DNA of 64,000 nt, from positions 793 through 64,792 of the forward strand of contig JBBRCG010000004.1 in NCBI GenBank assembly GCA_038205065.1. The letters run 5' to 3'. Position 1 is the stretch's first letter. Each line of letters begins with the position of its first letter. This DNA is from Candidatus Saccharimonadales bacterium (GTDB lineage: Bacteria > Patescibacteriota > Saccharimonadia > Saccharimonadales > Saccharimonadaceae). The notes under the pieces were generated by a model. The model had not been told where the DNA came from, ran no database searches, and saw only the letters and a program-made list of their open reading frames with translations. A program made the translations under genes and the position numbers. Below are positions 16,598-19,333 of this stretch, in pieces.

Positions 16598-16672
16598 GGC
16601 CCCATCGTCTAACGGTTAGGACACCAGGTTCTCATCCTGACAATCCGAGTTCGATTCTCGGTAGGGTCACCA
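16598..16672 (+). tRNA. tRNA-Glu(CTC)
   Basis: GGCCCCATCGTCTAACGGTTAGGACACCAGGTT-CTC-ATCCTGACAATCCGAGTTCGATTCTCGGTAGGGTCACCA. Confidence 0.97.
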
Positions 16673-16887
16673 AAGTAAAAACCTCTGGCTTTAGCTAGGG
16701 GTTTTTACTTTGGTGATCTCCATCTGGAAAACGAGAAGCCGCTGGGACCGCAAAATTATTGTTTATTACTTGAAAATGTGATATTATATTCGGAATTCCT
16801 CGTGGATGCGAGGTGGCGACACAGCAATGGGTCGTAACGGTCTCTCTGCCAAACCTCATTGGCAAGCGCAAGAGAAAGGTAAGCCGG

Positions 16888-17244
16888 ATGGCTACCAATT
16901 TCAACGTCGAGCGCATCGACATCATCGAAGGTCCCCGACTCGAGGACCTGCTGATGCACATGGCTCTTGTCGTGGCCTTCAGGGAACGCGGTACCTCACT
17001 TCGATCCGACGACATCCAGGTGTCGTTCGACGAAGTCCGGTACTACGACGACGAAGGTCATGACGTCGGCGAGCTCCTTGCCGGTGCCGTGAGCTTCAGG
17101 GGAACCCTCGTTGCGATCTCCTTCCTCGGAAGGGATCCATCGAAAGCGCCGAACTTCGTCATCGCGATGAAGTCGGGGCTGGGGATCTTCGAGGGTCACT
17201 ACAACGTGCAGACCCGAAAGGGTTGTCTCGTGCACGTGAAGTGA
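16888..17244 (+). CDS. Hypothetical protein (ORFan) between duplicated tRNA-Glu 3' ends
   Basis: GAAAGG SD, ATG 16888, terminator GTCCCGCACCGA...TCGGTGCGGGAC plus T-run. Confidence 0.7.
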   Translation: MATNFNVERIDIIEGPRLEDLLMHMALVVAFRERGTSLRSDDIQVSFDEVRYYDDEGHDVGELLAGAVSFRGTLVAISFLGRDPSKAPNFVIAMKSGLGIFEGHYNVQTRKGCLVHVK

Positions 17245-17496
17245 GCACATGTCCCGCACCGATACCCTCGGTGCGGGACTGCTTCTTTTTAGGGCGAAAG
17301 CTTGAATCTCATCCAGAAAATCGCGGGTGAGAATTGTCGGTGACAATTCGCAAGGCAATCTCACGGATGAACTGGTTCATTCGACTGAGTTGCGGGTGAG
17401 ACAGTTCCGTGAACTGTCGCAAGGACACCTTCAGATGAAATCTGTGATTTCAATCTCGAAGTGTCGGGGTCGCAGTGTGCGACCGCGGAACGTGAC

Positions 17497-17558
17497 CGAC
17501 TCCCGCAGGGGTCACCAAACTAAAAGCCTCATCTTTACGATGGGGTTTTTAGTTTGGT
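17497..17558 (+). repeat. Degenerate copy of tRNA-Glu 3' end plus terminator (att-like)
   Basis: GGGTCACCAAACTAAAAGCCTC (17509-17530) vs GGGTCACCAAAGTAAAAACCTC (16664-16685), 20/22 identical; preceded by CGACTCCCGCAGG, a decayed T-arm. Confidence 0.7.
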
Positions 17559-17785
17559 AAATCTTGTCAGAGATTTGAACCCAGAGGGTGCGATAGCGGA
17601 GCGAGACCGGGGGAGCTTTCTCATCCGTAGCTCGCGAACGATATACCATAGTACCCCCGCAGAGATTACAACGAATGAATTCATCCGCATATATTAATAT
17701 ATGAGAAAGAGTGCTTGTACTACAAGCATACATAATGTATACTTATCTACATGAATAGATTATCACTTACTCGGAGGAGGAAAAT

Positions 17786-18619
17786 ATGAGTGTTAAGATA
17801 ACCCTAATAGGGGACGGGCTCAGTTACGAGTGCGACGCAACCGTTGTTCAGGCAGCGAAGATTATCGGATTCCTAAATACAGACGACACGCTTTCTAATG
17901 ACTATGGCTCTACCAATCCAACATTAAGTACATCGTTTATTGAGGCACCTCAAGCTAGGGCTCTTTCTTCCCCGCGCGAAGCGATCCTCGGCGCTAATGC
18001 TAAAACAAATTCTCAGAAAATCCTCGTCTTGGGCGCCTACCTAACGCAAAGAGACGGATCGGATGAGTTTGCAACATCTGAGTTGAAGACATTGTTCGTC
18101 AAGGCAGGCGAGCCTGCACCCAGGAATCTCACTCGAGATATTCGGGATGCGATAAAGGTCGGTTATATTATGGAGAGTATGACATCTTCAGACATGTATG
18201 CCGTTACCAACACCGGTCTCCAGACCCTAGAGGAAGGGTTTAGCTCAACGTTACAAAAAAAGACCCGTAAAAAATCCAGTAGCAAATCTTCGAGGAAGAC
18301 AAGCACACCGGAGTGGTTACTCGGACTTTCAGTCGATGACCAGCTCGAAGGGTTCCCGTCCTATAGACAGCTTGGAACTCGGAGTAACAAAGTGCTCTGG
18401 ATTTTACAGTGGGTTACGATAGCAGGCAGAGAACGCATCACCGGTACTGACATCTGTTCTGTAGCCGACAAGCTATCAGACGATATTCCCGCTAAACAAG
18501 TTGCCGCAAGCTTTTCACAGCACCTATCAGGTGGCCGGGTATCGAAGACGGCTGACGGCTACAAAATTTTATTCAGTGGTAGCCAATACCTGAAGCAACT
18601 CGTAGGCACGGAAGGTTAA
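17786..18619 (+). CDS. Hypothetical protein with two predicted winged-helix domains
   Basis: AKTNSQKILVLGAYL...EFATSELKTLFVKAGEPAPRNLTRDIRDAIKVGYI...YAVTNTG and a second similar unit (KVLWILQW...ITGTDI...YKILFSG); strong GGAGGAGG SD; AT-richer codons. Confidence 0.6.
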   Translation: MSVKITLIGDGLSYECDATVVQAAKIIGFLNTDDTLSNDYGSTNPTLSTSFIEAPQARALSSPREAILGANAKTNSQKILVLGAYLTQRDGSDEFATSELKTLFVKAGEPAPRNLTRDIRDAIKVGYIMESMTSSDMYAVTNTGLQTLEEGFSSTLQKKTRKKSSSKSSRKTSTPEWLLGLSVDDQLEGFPSYRQLGTRSNKVLWILQWVTIAGRERITGTDICSVADKLSDDIPAKQVAASFSQHLSGGRVSKTADGYKILFSGSQYLKQLVGTEG

Positions 18620-18621
18620 CC

Positions 18622-19011
18622 ATGGAGCGTCTGCCAACTGAGGATTTAATCGCAAAATACCGGGCTGAGTACCAAAAGTTAAAGCCGATACATTCGAATG
18701 CGATCGGCGAAAAGGTCTACTTTAATATGCCCGGTTTTAAGCACTTGATCTTTAAAGGCAGCCACCGCCGAGAAACGGCAACTATTTTTAATCGCCTCGT
18801 TCTCATTCCGCTTATTGCACCCGTCATATATAATTGCAAAGAAGAGATTGAAATCCGAATTCGCAAAGAAATAATTGATGGTAAGAAAACACGAGTGACA
18901 TATTACGCCCTCGAGGCTCATGTCGGCAAAGACAGTGTTCGCGTTCGTGTTATAACTCGCAAAGTAGGCGAGAAGGGCAAACACTACTTCATGAGTATTA
19001 TGAAGTACTAA
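18622..19011 (+). CDS. Small basic protein, putative RelE/PBECR-like ribonuclease
   Basis: 129 aa, K/R-rich; VYFN..GFKHL..K...R...R and YYAL....VRVRVITRKVG..GKHYFMSIM pattern recalled from BECR-fold nucleases; not verified by search. Confidence 0.45.
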   Translation: MERLPTEDLIAKYRAEYQKLKPIHSNAIGEKVYFNMPGFKHLIFKGSHRRETATIFNRLVLIPLIAPVIYNCKEEIEIRIRKEIIDGKKTRVTYYALEAHVGKDSVRVRVITRKVGEKGKHYFMSIMKY

Positions 19012-19104
19012 AAAACGCCCCAGATGAGACGTTCTTTAGTGTGCTCGTTTCCAGACTTAGGAGATTTAACCTTGGCCGGTTCTAGGGCAAGCCCCACGAA
19101 CACA
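19012..19104 (-). ncRNA. Candidate antisense small RNA convergent on the 18622-19011 gene
   Basis: Minus-strand TTGCAA(19133-38)-17 nt-TATTAT(19110-15); 9-bp closing stem with a G-U pair; terminator AACGTCTC-ATCT-GGGGCGTT-TTTT ending at the stop codon of the CDS. Confidence 0.55.
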
Positions 19105-19333
19105 AACCTATAATAGCATGCGCTTACCCATATTGCAATAGTTCAAGCATTATTATATAACTAACACTCCTTCTCTCGTCAACAAACCCGTCTTCGCCAA
19201 GATAACCCTCTTTACACAATCATTCAGCACCTGCTGCAGGGTCATACCATCTGTTGCAATTCACTCCGCTCGTCTATAATACCCAGCAACAGCACAGTAA
19301 GTGCGATTATCTAAACAGAAAGGCGTATGGGTC

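What the first reader, a model, noticed from the sequence alone, without database searches (positions are those of the whole stretch)
17720..19140. Candidate three-part toxin/defence module: double winged-helix protein, RelE/PBECR-like nuclease, convergent structured antisense RNA
Seen: an AT-richer two-gene operon (277 aa and 129 aa, 2 nt apart) with its own TTGTAC-17-TATACT promoter. The palindrome ATACAT-A-ATGTAT overlaps that -10. Just past the second stop codon, a near-consensus minus-strand promoter (TTGCAA-17-TATTAT) would make a ~90-nt RNA. That RNA has a 9-bp closing stem (with a G-U pair favouring the minus strand), inner hairpins, and an intrinsic terminator ending at the CDS stop. 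Established: small basic BECR/RelE-fold proteins are RNase toxins, and type I and III TA systems use RNA antitoxins. Inference: the 129-aa protein is an RNase controlled by the RNA and/or the wHTH partner. The locus sits just downstream of a tRNA integration hotspot. I do not recognise this as a named system.
Basis: partly seen in the sequence, partly recalled or inferred. Interest (0 to 1): 0.75.

Follow-up and report, generated by a model that had tools for sequence, protein, structure and literature searches.

The report
Small basic protein with partner RNA
A small basic protein of unknown function (a stand-alone LPD3 domain) is followed, in about 50 distinct loci, by a convergently placed ~95-nt structured RNA gene that matches no Rfam family; the pair is mobile, often sits among anti-phage genes, and one phage carries the RNA alone, so it is most likely a new RNA-controlled toxin or defence module.

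Summary
The window has a 277-aa gene (A) and a 129-aa gene (B) 2 nt apart. Immediately downstream is a convergent minus-strand small RNA with its own promoter and terminator.

- B is not recognisably RelE/BECR. It is a stand-alone LPD3 domain of unknown function, known from phage and plasmid polyvalent proteins.
- A is a tandem winged-helix protein but not an obligate partner. Most B genes have no coupled upstream gene, and the rest have one of at least four unrelated regulators.
- The invariant unit is B plus the RNA, found in about 50 non-redundant loci down to about 30% B identity. There is one RNA per B, always convergent, with a fixed-register promoter, three covarying helices and a terminator. 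It matches no Rfam family.

The pair is mobile: it occurs at the tRNA-Glu 3' flank, inside R-M operons, next to integrases and inside a ribosomal operon. Intact B never lacks the RNA, whereas the RNA persists beside B remnants, and one phage contig carries the RNA alone.

Best reading (confidence 0.45): a protein toxin or effector held in check by a structured RNA. It would work like type III TA/abortive infection but shares none of that type's defining layout. No experiment, toxicity test or clean transcript evidence exists.

The parts
18622..19011 (+). Gene B. A 129-aa basic protein (pI 9.9) that is a stand-alone LPD3 domain. It is the conserved protein half of the module.
   Evidence: ORF. 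About 250 close relatives at 74-89% identity, with 54 invariant columns. 440 representative clusters. 21 of 46 diverged members hit Pfam LPD3, best E = 2.3e-8. AlphaFold pLDDT 87.8. It matches LPD3 domains of phage polyvalent proteins at TM 0.55-0.63. pI.
19009..19103 (-). Small structured RNA gene of about 95 nt, the conserved RNA half of the module. P1 closing stem pairs 19096-19103 with 19041-19048. P2 tetraloop hairpin is 19084-19095. P3 is 19054-19077. Terminator stem is 19015-19032, with the U-tract at 19010-19015.
   Evidence: Strand-specific fold. RNAalifold consensus and covariation. 96.4% of cells paired, 15 pairs with double changes, and 0 of 500 shuffles reach any measure. Covariance model R1 gives one hit per locus, always convergent after B. 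No Rfam family matches.
19110..19138 (-). Promoter of the small RNA: -35 TTGCAA (19133-19138), 17-nt spacer, TG-extended -10 TATTAT (19110-19115). The -10 ends 6 nt before the first G of P1.
   Evidence: Across 50 loci the mean match is 9.8 of 12, against 6.25 at random positions. The -10 ends exactly 6 nt before P1 in 43 of 50 loci.
17786..18619 (+). Gene A. A 277-aa optional upstream partner. It has an N-terminal beta-hairpin plus helix, then two winged-helix modules (about residues 63-150 and 199-275) joined by disordered basic linkers. It is probably the operon's autoregulator.
   Evidence: ORF. 32 homolog clusters. Model pLDDT 81. Foldseek hits are winged-helix proteins, including tandem-wH Stn1, RosR, MarR and CggR. 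A is found upstream of B only in the window, L001, L005, L010 and L058/L059.
17712..17743 (+). Promoter and putative operators of the A-B operon: -35 TTGTAC (17715-17720), -10 TATACT (17738-17743), palindrome TGCTTGTA-C-TACAAGCA (17712-17728), and palindrome ATACAT-A-ATGTAT (17728-17740).
   Evidence: Read directly from the sequence. Both palindromes and the -10 are conserved upstream of A-type partners in L001 and L010.
16598..16672 (+). tRNA-Glu(CTC). Its 3' flank is the recurrent chromosomal site of the module.
   Evidence: tRNA-Glu lies about 200 nt upstream of partner-B-RNA in L067, L068 and L069. L067 and L068 share the window's left flank: GluRS, DUF3048, histidine kinase, response regulator.
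17497..17550 (+). Direct repeat of the tRNA-Glu 3' end plus its terminator (70% identity over 54 nt). It marks a later insertion of about 845 bp (holding the 143-aa ORF 16813-17244) between the tRNA and the module.
   Evidence: The distance from the repeat to A (269 nt) matches the tRNA-to-partner distance in L067 and L068 (204-223 nt).

Best explanation
The functional unit is a two-component protein-RNA module.

Components:
- B is a small, very basic stand-alone LPD3-domain protein.
- The RNA is an abundant ~95-nt transcript made from its own strong promoter on the opposite strand. It folds into a three-helix junction (P1 closing stem, P2 tetraloop hairpin, P3) followed by a terminator that abuts B's stop codon.

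Proposed mechanism (inferred, not shown):
- B is a harmful or growth-arresting nucleic-acid-binding effector.
- The RNA binds B directly and keeps it inactive. This is how type III toxin-antitoxin / abortive-infection systems work.
- When RNA synthesis falls or the RNA is degraded, for example when a phage shuts off host transcription or the mobile element is lost, free B acts.
- In one subclade, including this window, an interchangeable DNA-binding protein is translationally coupled upstream. Here it is the tandem winged-helix protein A; elsewhere it is a LexA-like S24 peptidase or one of two other families. It probably represses the operon through the palindromes over its promoter, adding transcriptional control or a trigger input.
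- A phage that carries the RNA alone would use it as an antidote mimic.

Shown here: the existence, structure, strand, promoter and strict linkage of the RNA; LPD3 identity of B; mobility and context.
Inferred: toxicity of B, direct RNA-protein binding, and the trigger.
For: 1. Strict 1:1 linkage and fixed geometry of B and the RNA in about 50 non-redundant loci. It holds down to 29-34% B identity (L046, L048, L049) and in a second clade that carries Pfam LPD3 annotation (L055, L063-L065).
2. The RNA is a structured, independently transcribed molecule. 96.4% of cells are paired, against 33-50% when partners are slid. Fifteen pairs show compensatory changes. G-U pairs form only on the minus strand. 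The P2 loop swaps between CUUG and GAAA tetraloops across clades. The promoter is conserved in fixed register.
3. Loop and junction sequence is nearly invariant while B diverges to 52% identity. No conserved complementarity to B's mRNA exists. Together these point to recognition by a protein rather than antisense pairing.
4. B is uniformly basic: family pI 9.3-11.5.
5. Mobility and defence context. The module lies inside type I R-M operons with RhuM and KAP NTPase (L056, L066), beside MmeI-like R-M and an HTH-Panacea gene (L059), beside Mrr (L060), beside integrases (L055, L063), beside a lysin (L065), beside a PemK toxin (L051), and between rplB and rpsS (L054).
6. Asymmetric decay. Intact B is never seen without the RNA. 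An intact RNA sits beside B remnants in L050 and L052. In L036 the RNA's 5' half is lost and B carries in-frame stops.
7. Phage contig L061 has PHROG exonuclease, RusA, SSB, repressor and methyltransferase genes. It carries a full-length RNA homolog (47 bits, E = 4e-9) with its own TATAAT box and no B. No B relative was found in the viral collection. This parallels the pseudo-ToxI mimic of phage PhiTE (PMC3475682).
8. Interchangeable DNA-binding partners with their own operators resemble the mix-and-match regulator or antitoxin genes of TA operons.
Against: - There is no experimental evidence of toxicity, binding or phage defence.
- LPD3 has no known activity. The paper that defined it did not list it among the probably enzymatic LPDs.
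- B has no significant similarity to any known toxin fold.
- The phage RNA-only copy is a single case. Its minimum-energy fold does not reproduce P2.
- The decay asymmetry rests on four or five loci.
- B is unusually well conserved for a toxin (54 of 129 invariant columns across Saccharibacteria). Such conservation would also suit a constrained ribonucleoprotein.
- Several contexts are not obviously defensive (window, L067-L069).
- The PADLOC match to candidate PDC-M04B is weak and partial.
- Transcript evidence is inconclusive.
Confidence: 0.45

Rival explanations
1. Non-toxic ribonucleoprotein. B is a dedicated binding or chaperone protein for the RNA, or the RNA is B's cofactor or scaffold. 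The complex would carry out a function for the mobile element or the cell, such as recognising or regulating other nucleic acids, with no toxin-antidote relationship.
For: It rests on the same linkage and co-divergence of B and the RNA. B is basic. Both B and the RNA loops are very highly conserved, as expected for a constrained complex. LPD3 was not predicted to be enzymatic. Several contexts are non-defensive.
Against: If the RNA needs B, a phage carrying the RNA without B is harder to explain, as are genomic RNA copies beside B remnants. The convergent layout, with a strong separate RNA promoter and a weak or leaderless B, favours RNA excess over protein. That is typical of antidote logic rather than a 1:1 complex.
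Confidence: 0.25
2. Type I-like antisense control. The RNA and B's mRNA are convergent and share a bidirectional terminator. Pairing of their 3' ends, or of read-through transcripts, would trigger degradation of B's mRNA.
For: The genes are convergent and the terminator hairpin is shared. B's stop codon overlaps the RNA's U-tract. If B's weak plus-strand terminator leaks, the read-through transcript would be fully complementary to the RNA.
Against: An antisense mechanism needs no conserved structure or loop sequence, yet both are strongly conserved. There is no conserved complementarity to B's mRNA outside the terminator: z from -2.3 to +2.3, with inconsistent sites. B is a 129-aa soluble basic protein, not a small hydrophobic peptide. 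The phage copy keeps the structured core but has a different terminator.
Confidence: 0.12
3. The RNA is an independent regulatory small RNA that acts on other targets, for example through its CUCCU anti-Shine-Dalgarno-like loop. It is merely co-inherited with B on the same mobile segment.
For: The main clade has an invariant AAUCUCCUAAG stretch that could pair with AGGAG ribosome-binding sites. The RNA has its own promoter and terminator.
Against: The CUCCU element is absent from the other clades; only CUAAG is shared. In partner-less loci B is leaderless, so there is no SD in cis. Co-inheritance alone would not keep exact spacing and orientation down to about 30% protein identity and across unrelated contexts.
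Confidence: 0.08
4. The conserved element works at the DNA level, as an attachment or recombination site or an origin. Alternatively it is only an elaborate terminator or insulator for B.
For: The module lies at tRNA-Glu flanks and next to integrases.
Against: Compensatory changes and G-U pairs are strand-specific. Minus-strand folding gives z = -4.9, against 0 for the plus strand. A promoter is conserved in fixed register. The core lies beyond the terminator hairpin and is not needed for termination.
Confidence: 0.04

Closest known systems
Type III toxin-antitoxin / abortive infection systems (ToxIN, CptIN, TenpIN)
   Same: A protein effector paired with a dedicated, structured non-coding RNA encoded right next to it. 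Such systems are mobile, linked to phage defence, and a phage can carry an RNA mimic (PhiTE pseudo-ToxI, PMC3475682). The RNA is made in excess from a strong promoter.
   Different: By the published definition (PMC5086642), the type III antitoxin is a tandem array of short repeats upstream of the toxin, on the same strand, under one promoter with an internal terminator. The toxin is a ToxN-, CptN- or TenpN-family endoRNase that cuts the repeats. Here the RNA is single-copy, downstream, convergent and self-promoted, and it forms a three-helix junction. The protein is an unrelated LPD3 domain. Binding, processing and toxicity are untested.
LPD3 (Pfam PF18798), a domain of phage and conjugative-element polyvalent proteins (Iyer et al. 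2017, PMC5512222)
   Same: B belongs to this superfamily by transitive sequence matches and by predicted fold.
   Different: Described LPD3 domains are embedded in giant multidomain proteins thought to be delivered with invading DNA, and no function or RNA partner has been reported for them. Here the domain stands alone, is chromosomal or island-borne in Saccharibacteria and relatives, and is always paired with an RNA gene.
Type I TA pairs with convergent, 3'-overlapping RNAs (TxpA/RatA, par RNA I/RNA II).
   Same: Convergent toxin gene and small RNA sharing a bidirectional terminator.
   Different: Type I toxins are small hydrophobic peptides controlled by base pairing. B is a 129-aa soluble basic protein, and no conserved complementarity beyond the terminator was found.
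   Same: Small, basic, alpha+beta proteins with N-terminal helices packed on a four-stranded antiparallel sheet. PBECR domains occur in the same polyvalent proteins as LPD3.
   Different: No sequence match to any RelE, ParE, HigB, YoeB or PBECR family. No significant structural match: HigB2 at E = 0.19, TM 0.27.
PADLOC candidate system PDC-M04 (unpublished, computationally predicted candidate)
   Same: 6-8 of 46 B-family members match PDC-M04B models (best E = 4e-5).
   Different: The matches are weak and cover only part of the profile. No partner matches PDC-M04A. The candidate itself is unvalidated in the papers read, and no RNA component is recorded for it.

Membership tests
Pfam LPD3 (PF18798) | The protein itself scores at or above the Pfam gathering threshold | tested here: not met
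   Window B scores 15.4 bits (E = 0.022) against a gathering score of 27, although the match spans profile positions 8-112 of 114.
Pfam LPD3 (PF18798) | Homology through intermediate sequences, and a shared fold | tested here: met
   21 of 46 members of B's own family hit LPD3, best E = 2.3e-8. Precomputed PF18798 annotation exists for P0131 and its relatives. The AlphaFold model matches BFVD LPD3 domains at TM 0.55-0.63, probability 1.0, E as low as 3e-4.
RelE/ParE / BECR-fold RNase toxins (including PBECR) | Sequence match to a RelE, ParE, HigB, YoeB or PBECR family | tested here: not met
   No such family appears at E <= 1 for B or at E <= 0.01 for 46 family members.
RelE/ParE / BECR-fold RNase toxins (including PBECR) | Significant structural similarity to a solved BECR-fold protein | tested here: inconclusive
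   The best PDB hits are non-significant (E >= 0.04, TM about 0.25). HigB2 is at rank 9 with E = 0.19 and TM 0.27. The helices-then-four-strand-sheet topology is compatible with the fold but not diagnostic.
RelE/ParE / BECR-fold RNase toxins (including PBECR) | RNase activity and catalytic residues | not testable with these tools
   The family-wide invariant residues are Y17, G38, H41, R50 and S125. No assay was possible.
Type III toxin-antitoxin | Antitoxin RNA made of tandem short repeats, upstream of the toxin on the same strand, under a single promoter with an internal terminator (PMC5086642) | tested here: not met
   There are no tandem repeats. The RNA is single-copy, downstream, convergent and has its own promoter.
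Type III toxin-antitoxin | Toxin belongs to the ToxN, CptN or TenpN endoRNase families | tested here: not met
   Only LPD3 is detected in Pfam, and there is no ToxN/AbiQ-type hit in Pfam or PADLOC.
Type III toxin-antitoxin | The RNA neutralises the toxin by direct binding, and the toxin processes the RNA | not testable with these tools
   This needs co-expression, binding and cleavage assays.
Type I toxin-antitoxin | Antitoxin RNA base-pairs with the toxin mRNA to block translation or trigger decay | tested here: inconclusive
   Only the shared terminator is complementary. No conserved duplex elsewhere exceeds shuffled controls. Read-through pairing cannot be excluded.
Type I toxin-antitoxin | Toxin is a small (usually under 60 aa) hydrophobic peptide | tested here: not met
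   B is 129 aa, with GRAVY -0.36 and pI 9.9.
Any Rfam family (release 15) | Covariance-model match at the gathering score | tested here: not met
   No match at the gathering score in the window or in 9 related loci. With permissive thresholds only chance-level hits appeared, E >= 4 on the element.
PADLOC candidate PDC-M04 | Both genes (M04A and M04B) detected | tested here: not met
   M04B hits are weak and partial, in 6-8 of 46 members. No M04A hit was found for any partner type.
Winged-helix DNA-binding proteins (gene A) | H-S-H-H-S-S winged-helix topology with structural matches to solved wH domains | tested here: met
   Two modules have this order. Per-domain Foldseek matches to SSo2273, RosR, CggR and MarR reach probability 0.96-1.0 at rmsd 2.5-3.7 A. 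Tandem-wH Stn1 ranks 1, 5 and 6. No whole-chain E-value is below 1e-3, and there is no Pfam hit.

The most novel reading that the evidence does not exclude
This is a previously undescribed class of RNA-controlled toxin or abortive-infection module. A stand-alone LPD3 protein would be neutralised through direct binding by a single-copy, convergently transcribed three-helix-junction RNA. The module would spread among Saccharibacteria and related bacteria at tRNA-Glu flanks, R-M operons and integrative elements, and at least one phage would counter it with an RNA mimic. It would also give the first functional handle on the LPD3 domain of phage and plasmid polyvalent proteins, as an RNA-recognising effector domain.
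Probability: 0.4. Interest if true: 0.85.

Novelty: new variant of a known kind. Interest (0 to 1): 0.72.

Why it matters
RNA-antidote systems are few: type I, type III and a handful of special cases. Each new one has revealed new RNA-protein recognition and new phage counter-measures.

This module offers several things:
- An RNA motif with no Rfam match, already supported by covariation.
- A protein domain (LPD3) that is widespread in phage and plasmid polyvalent proteins but has no known function.
- A natural candidate anti-defence RNA in a phage.
- A case in Saccharibacteria (CPR), episymbionts with tiny genomes whose immune repertoire is poorly known.

Because the unit is tiny (about 500 bp), toxicity, rescue and binding tests are simple. 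The hypothesis is directly testable.

Tried and rejected
- **Anti-SD control of B by the RNA's CUCCU loop.** Rejected. In partner-less loci B sits 6-10 nt after a TATAAT box, so the mRNA is leaderless and has no SD. The CUCCU element is missing in the other clades.
- **Trans-antisense pairing between the RNA core and B's mRNA.** No signal above shuffles, and no conserved site (the first attempt timed out).
- **Small ORF on the plus strand inside the RNA region** (TTG-GCC-GGT-TCT-AGG...). Rejected. Wobble positions are invariant, and the reading-frame length varies between loci.
- **RelE/BECR assignment.** No sequence or significant structural support.
- **PDB by sequence.** Nothing for B or A.
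- **NCBIfam.** Nothing.
- **Annotated phages and plasmids.** No B relative.
- **Viral contigs.** No B relative with A1 or P0131. A3 was too diverse for the tool. The clade-2 RNA pattern was absent. L062 is a chance pattern match with no model hit.
- **RNA-seq.** The window's own sequence exists only in DNA metagenomes. Metatranscriptome contigs cover the conserved core at 2-5x depth. They carry no strand information and extend past the predicted start, so this is inconclusive.
- **Literature.** No function is reported for LPD3. No paper contains the RNA sequence. PDC-M04 is undescribed beyond being a predicted candidate.
- **Synteny.** The first test suggested no shared flanks. This was later corrected: L067 and L068 share the window's left flank.
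Full report
**What is in the window**

Two same-strand ORFs lie 2 nt apart. A is 17786..18619 (277 aa) and B is 18622..19011 (129 aa). Upstream is TTGTAC-17-TATACT (17715-17743). Two palindromes overlap the -35 and the -10.

Directly after B's stop codon, the minus strand carries TTGCAA-17-TATTAT with a TG-extended -10 (19138..19110). A 95-nt segment follows (19103..19009). It folds at -40.1 kcal/mol (z = -4.9). The plus strand folds no better than shuffled sequence.

The fold has four elements:
- an 8-bp closing stem (P1) that contains a U-G pair;
- a GGGG-CUUG-CCCU hairpin (P2);
- an interrupted hairpin (P3);
- a terminator whose U-tract is the complement of B's stop codon and the following A-run.

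The module is AT-richer than the window, 45.7% versus 53.0% GC.

**What B is**

Pfam gives B only a sub-threshold LPD3 match, though it spans the whole profile. B has about 250 close relatives of 129-131 aa. All are unnamed. The sources that carry a name are Candidatus Saccharibacteria or other CPR bacteria. Fifty-four of 129 columns are invariant.

An exhaustive profile search finds 440 representative clusters. Nearly all are stand-alone proteins of 115-185 aa. Of 46 diverged members, 21 match Pfam LPD3, best E = 2.3e-8.

A confident AlphaFold model (pLDDT 87.8) has no significant neighbour in the PDB. The best hit has E = 0.04, and HigB2 appears only at E = 0.19. The model does match LPD3 domains of phage polyvalent proteins at TM 0.55-0.63.

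So B is a solo LPD3 domain. The defining paper reports no function for LPD3 and does not list it among the probably enzymatic LPDs. The RelE/PBECR assignment is not supported. The family is uniformly basic, pI 9.3-11.5.

**The RNA is the conserved partner; A is not**

Loci came from three routes: 3 from genomes, 50 from metagenomes, and 16 through exact-protein look-ups.

Across these loci A precedes B only in a handful: the window, L001, L005, L010 and L058/L059. About 30 loci have no coupled upstream gene. There B sits 6-10 nt after a TATAAT box, so its mRNA would be leaderless.

The remaining loci carry one of at least four unrelated, translationally coupled partners:
- A-type;
- a ~265-aa family with a winged-helix-like N-terminus;
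- a ~200-aa family;
- a LexA-like S24 peptidase.

Each partner type has its own promoter and repeat motifs. The window's two palindromes are conserved upstream of A-type genes in L001 and L010. A itself models as two winged-helix modules joined by disordered basic linkers.

The RNA, by contrast, follows B in every locus that has an intact B and enough downstream sequence. Covariance model R1 finds exactly one strong hit per locus, always convergent and abutting B's stop codon. The window has no second copy.

**Evidence that it is a structured RNA**

On 39 distinct sequences, 96.4% of cells form standard pairs. When 3' partners are slid by 1-3 columns the figure is 33-50%. Fifteen of 24 pairs show compensatory double changes. 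None of 500 shuffles reaches any observed measure. G-U pairs that would be C-A mismatches on the plus strand are common, for example 17 sequences at columns 10/62 and 17 at columns 81/97.

B relatives at only 29-34% identity carry diverged or compact versions with the same P1-P2-P3 plan. In L046 and L049, P1 plus a U-tract serves as the terminator. A second clade with true Pfam LPD3 annotation replaces the CUUG tetraloop with GAAA.

The promoter is conserved, with a mean match of 9.8 of 12 against 6.25 at random positions. It is also fixed in register: the -10 ends exactly 6 nt before the first G of P1 in 43 of 50 loci.

No Rfam family matches, and no paper in the library contains the sequence.

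**Mobility and context**

The unit occurs in many settings:
- inside type I R-M operons, between hsdS and hsdR, alongside RhuM and KAP NTPase genes (L056, L066);
- next to an MmeI-like R-M enzyme, followed by an HTH-Panacea gene, Bro-N, GIY-YIG and T5orf172 (L059);
- next to an Mrr endonuclease (L060);
- two genes away from phage-type integrases (L055, L063);
- beside a lysin (L065);
- beside a PemK toxin (L051);
- inserted between rplB and rpsS (L054).

In the window, L067 and L068 the unit follows the same left flank: GluRS, DUF3048, histidine kinase, response regulator, tRNA-Glu(CTC). The partner type differs between them, however. In L069 the unit follows a tRNA-Glu(TTC).

The window also has a 54-nt repeat of the tRNA's 3' end at 17497-17550. 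It brackets a later 845-bp insertion. The 'tRNA hotspot' remark is therefore supported.

**Clues to the relationship between B and the RNA**

- No conserved complementarity exists between the RNA core and B's mRNA.
- The anti-SD-like CUCCU is specific to one clade.
- The RNA loops are nearly invariant while B diverges. This favours recognition by a protein.
- Intact B never lacks the RNA.
- L050 and L052 keep an intact RNA beside only a C-terminal remnant of B.
- L051 has both truncated.
- L036 has lost the RNA's 5' half and promoter, and its B has in-frame stop codons.
- A 37-kb IMG/VR phage contig (L061) has PHROG exonuclease, RusA, SSB, repressor, methyltransferase and GroEL genes. It carries a full-length homolog of the RNA (47 bits, E = 4e-9) with its own TATAAT box and a 23-nt insertion in P3.
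- That contig has no trace of B, and no B relative was found in the viral collection.

This last pattern mirrors the pseudo-ToxI antidote mimic of phage PhiTE (PMC3475682).

**Interpretation**

The best-supported model (0.45) is a protein effector or toxin neutralised by direct binding of its cognate structured RNA. The optional upstream DNA-binding partners would add transcriptional control.

It would work like a type III TA / abortive-infection system, but it fails every structural criterion of that type. There are no tandem repeats, the strand, position and promoter layout differ, and the protein is unrelated. It is not a member.

The rivals are:
- a non-toxic ribonucleoprotein (0.25);
- type I-like antisense control through the shared terminator (0.12);
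- an independent trans-acting small RNA (0.08);
- a DNA-level element or a mere terminator (0.04).

**Limits**

- Toxicity, binding and defence are all inferred.
- The phage case is a single example, and its minimum-energy fold does not reproduce P2.
- The decay asymmetry rests on a few loci.
- Metatranscriptome contigs cover the conserved core only at low depth, without strand information, and run past the predicted start.
- The PADLOC link to candidate PDC-M04B is weak.

Noticed in passing
window 17323-17424: Two 33-nt direct repeats (73% identical, 69 nt apart), each holding an internal palindrome (GAATTGTCGGTGACAATTC / GACAGTTCCGTGAACTGTC). They lie in the ~500-nt non-coding stretch between the 143-aa ORF and gene A. 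Their function is unknown.
   Followed up: no
window 16673-17550: An ~845-bp segment bounded by the tRNA-Glu 3' end and a 70%-identical copy of it. It holds a 143-aa ORF (16813-17244) with no family match, plus a strong terminator (17251-17279). It looks like a small remnant of a second element integrated at the same tRNA.
   Followed up: partly
L054 2885-5035: A B+RNA unit and a 283-aa minus-strand gene with no family match are inserted between ribosomal protein genes rplB (L2) and rpsS (S19) of the S10 operon. This is an unusual place for a mobile insertion.
   Followed up: partly
L061 28-1047: The phage contig that carries the RNA-only copy also encodes a GroEL-like chaperonin fragment (phrog_5725, E = 1e-73) and two YopX-like paralogs. 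The 1.1-kb non-coding region around the RNA contains a repeated motif, AAGCAGAAGTTCAGTSAC.
   Followed up: no
L020, L021, L023, L031, L033, L034, L047 and others, just upstream of B: In partner-less loci a TATAAT box lies 6-10 nt before B's start codon, and there is no Shine-Dalgarno sequence. This implies leaderless or near-leaderless translation of B.
   Followed up: partly
L059 6620-7730: Immediately after the B+RNA unit lie an HTH_3 + SocA_Panacea (PanA-type antitoxin domain) gene and a 134-aa gene that overlaps it. This is probably a separate type II TA pair.
   Followed up: no
L064 1343-1423 (minus strand): A second, weak hit of RNA model R1 (19.8 bits, E = 0.012) about 450 nt upstream of B in this locus. 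It may be a degenerate second copy or a chance hit.
   Followed up: no
L004, L012, L060 upstream of the ~265-aa partner; L008, L009, L028, L056 upstream of the ~200-aa partner: Each partner family has its own conserved upstream repeat: tandem TTAAAGCGAT, or GATAGATAGAT next to a TTGACA box. This suggests family-specific operators.
   Followed up: partly
L053 854-985: A fragment matching only residues 8-49 of B (48% identity), with no RNA nearby. It is either a decayed copy or a different protein that shares B's N-terminal segment.
   Followed up: no
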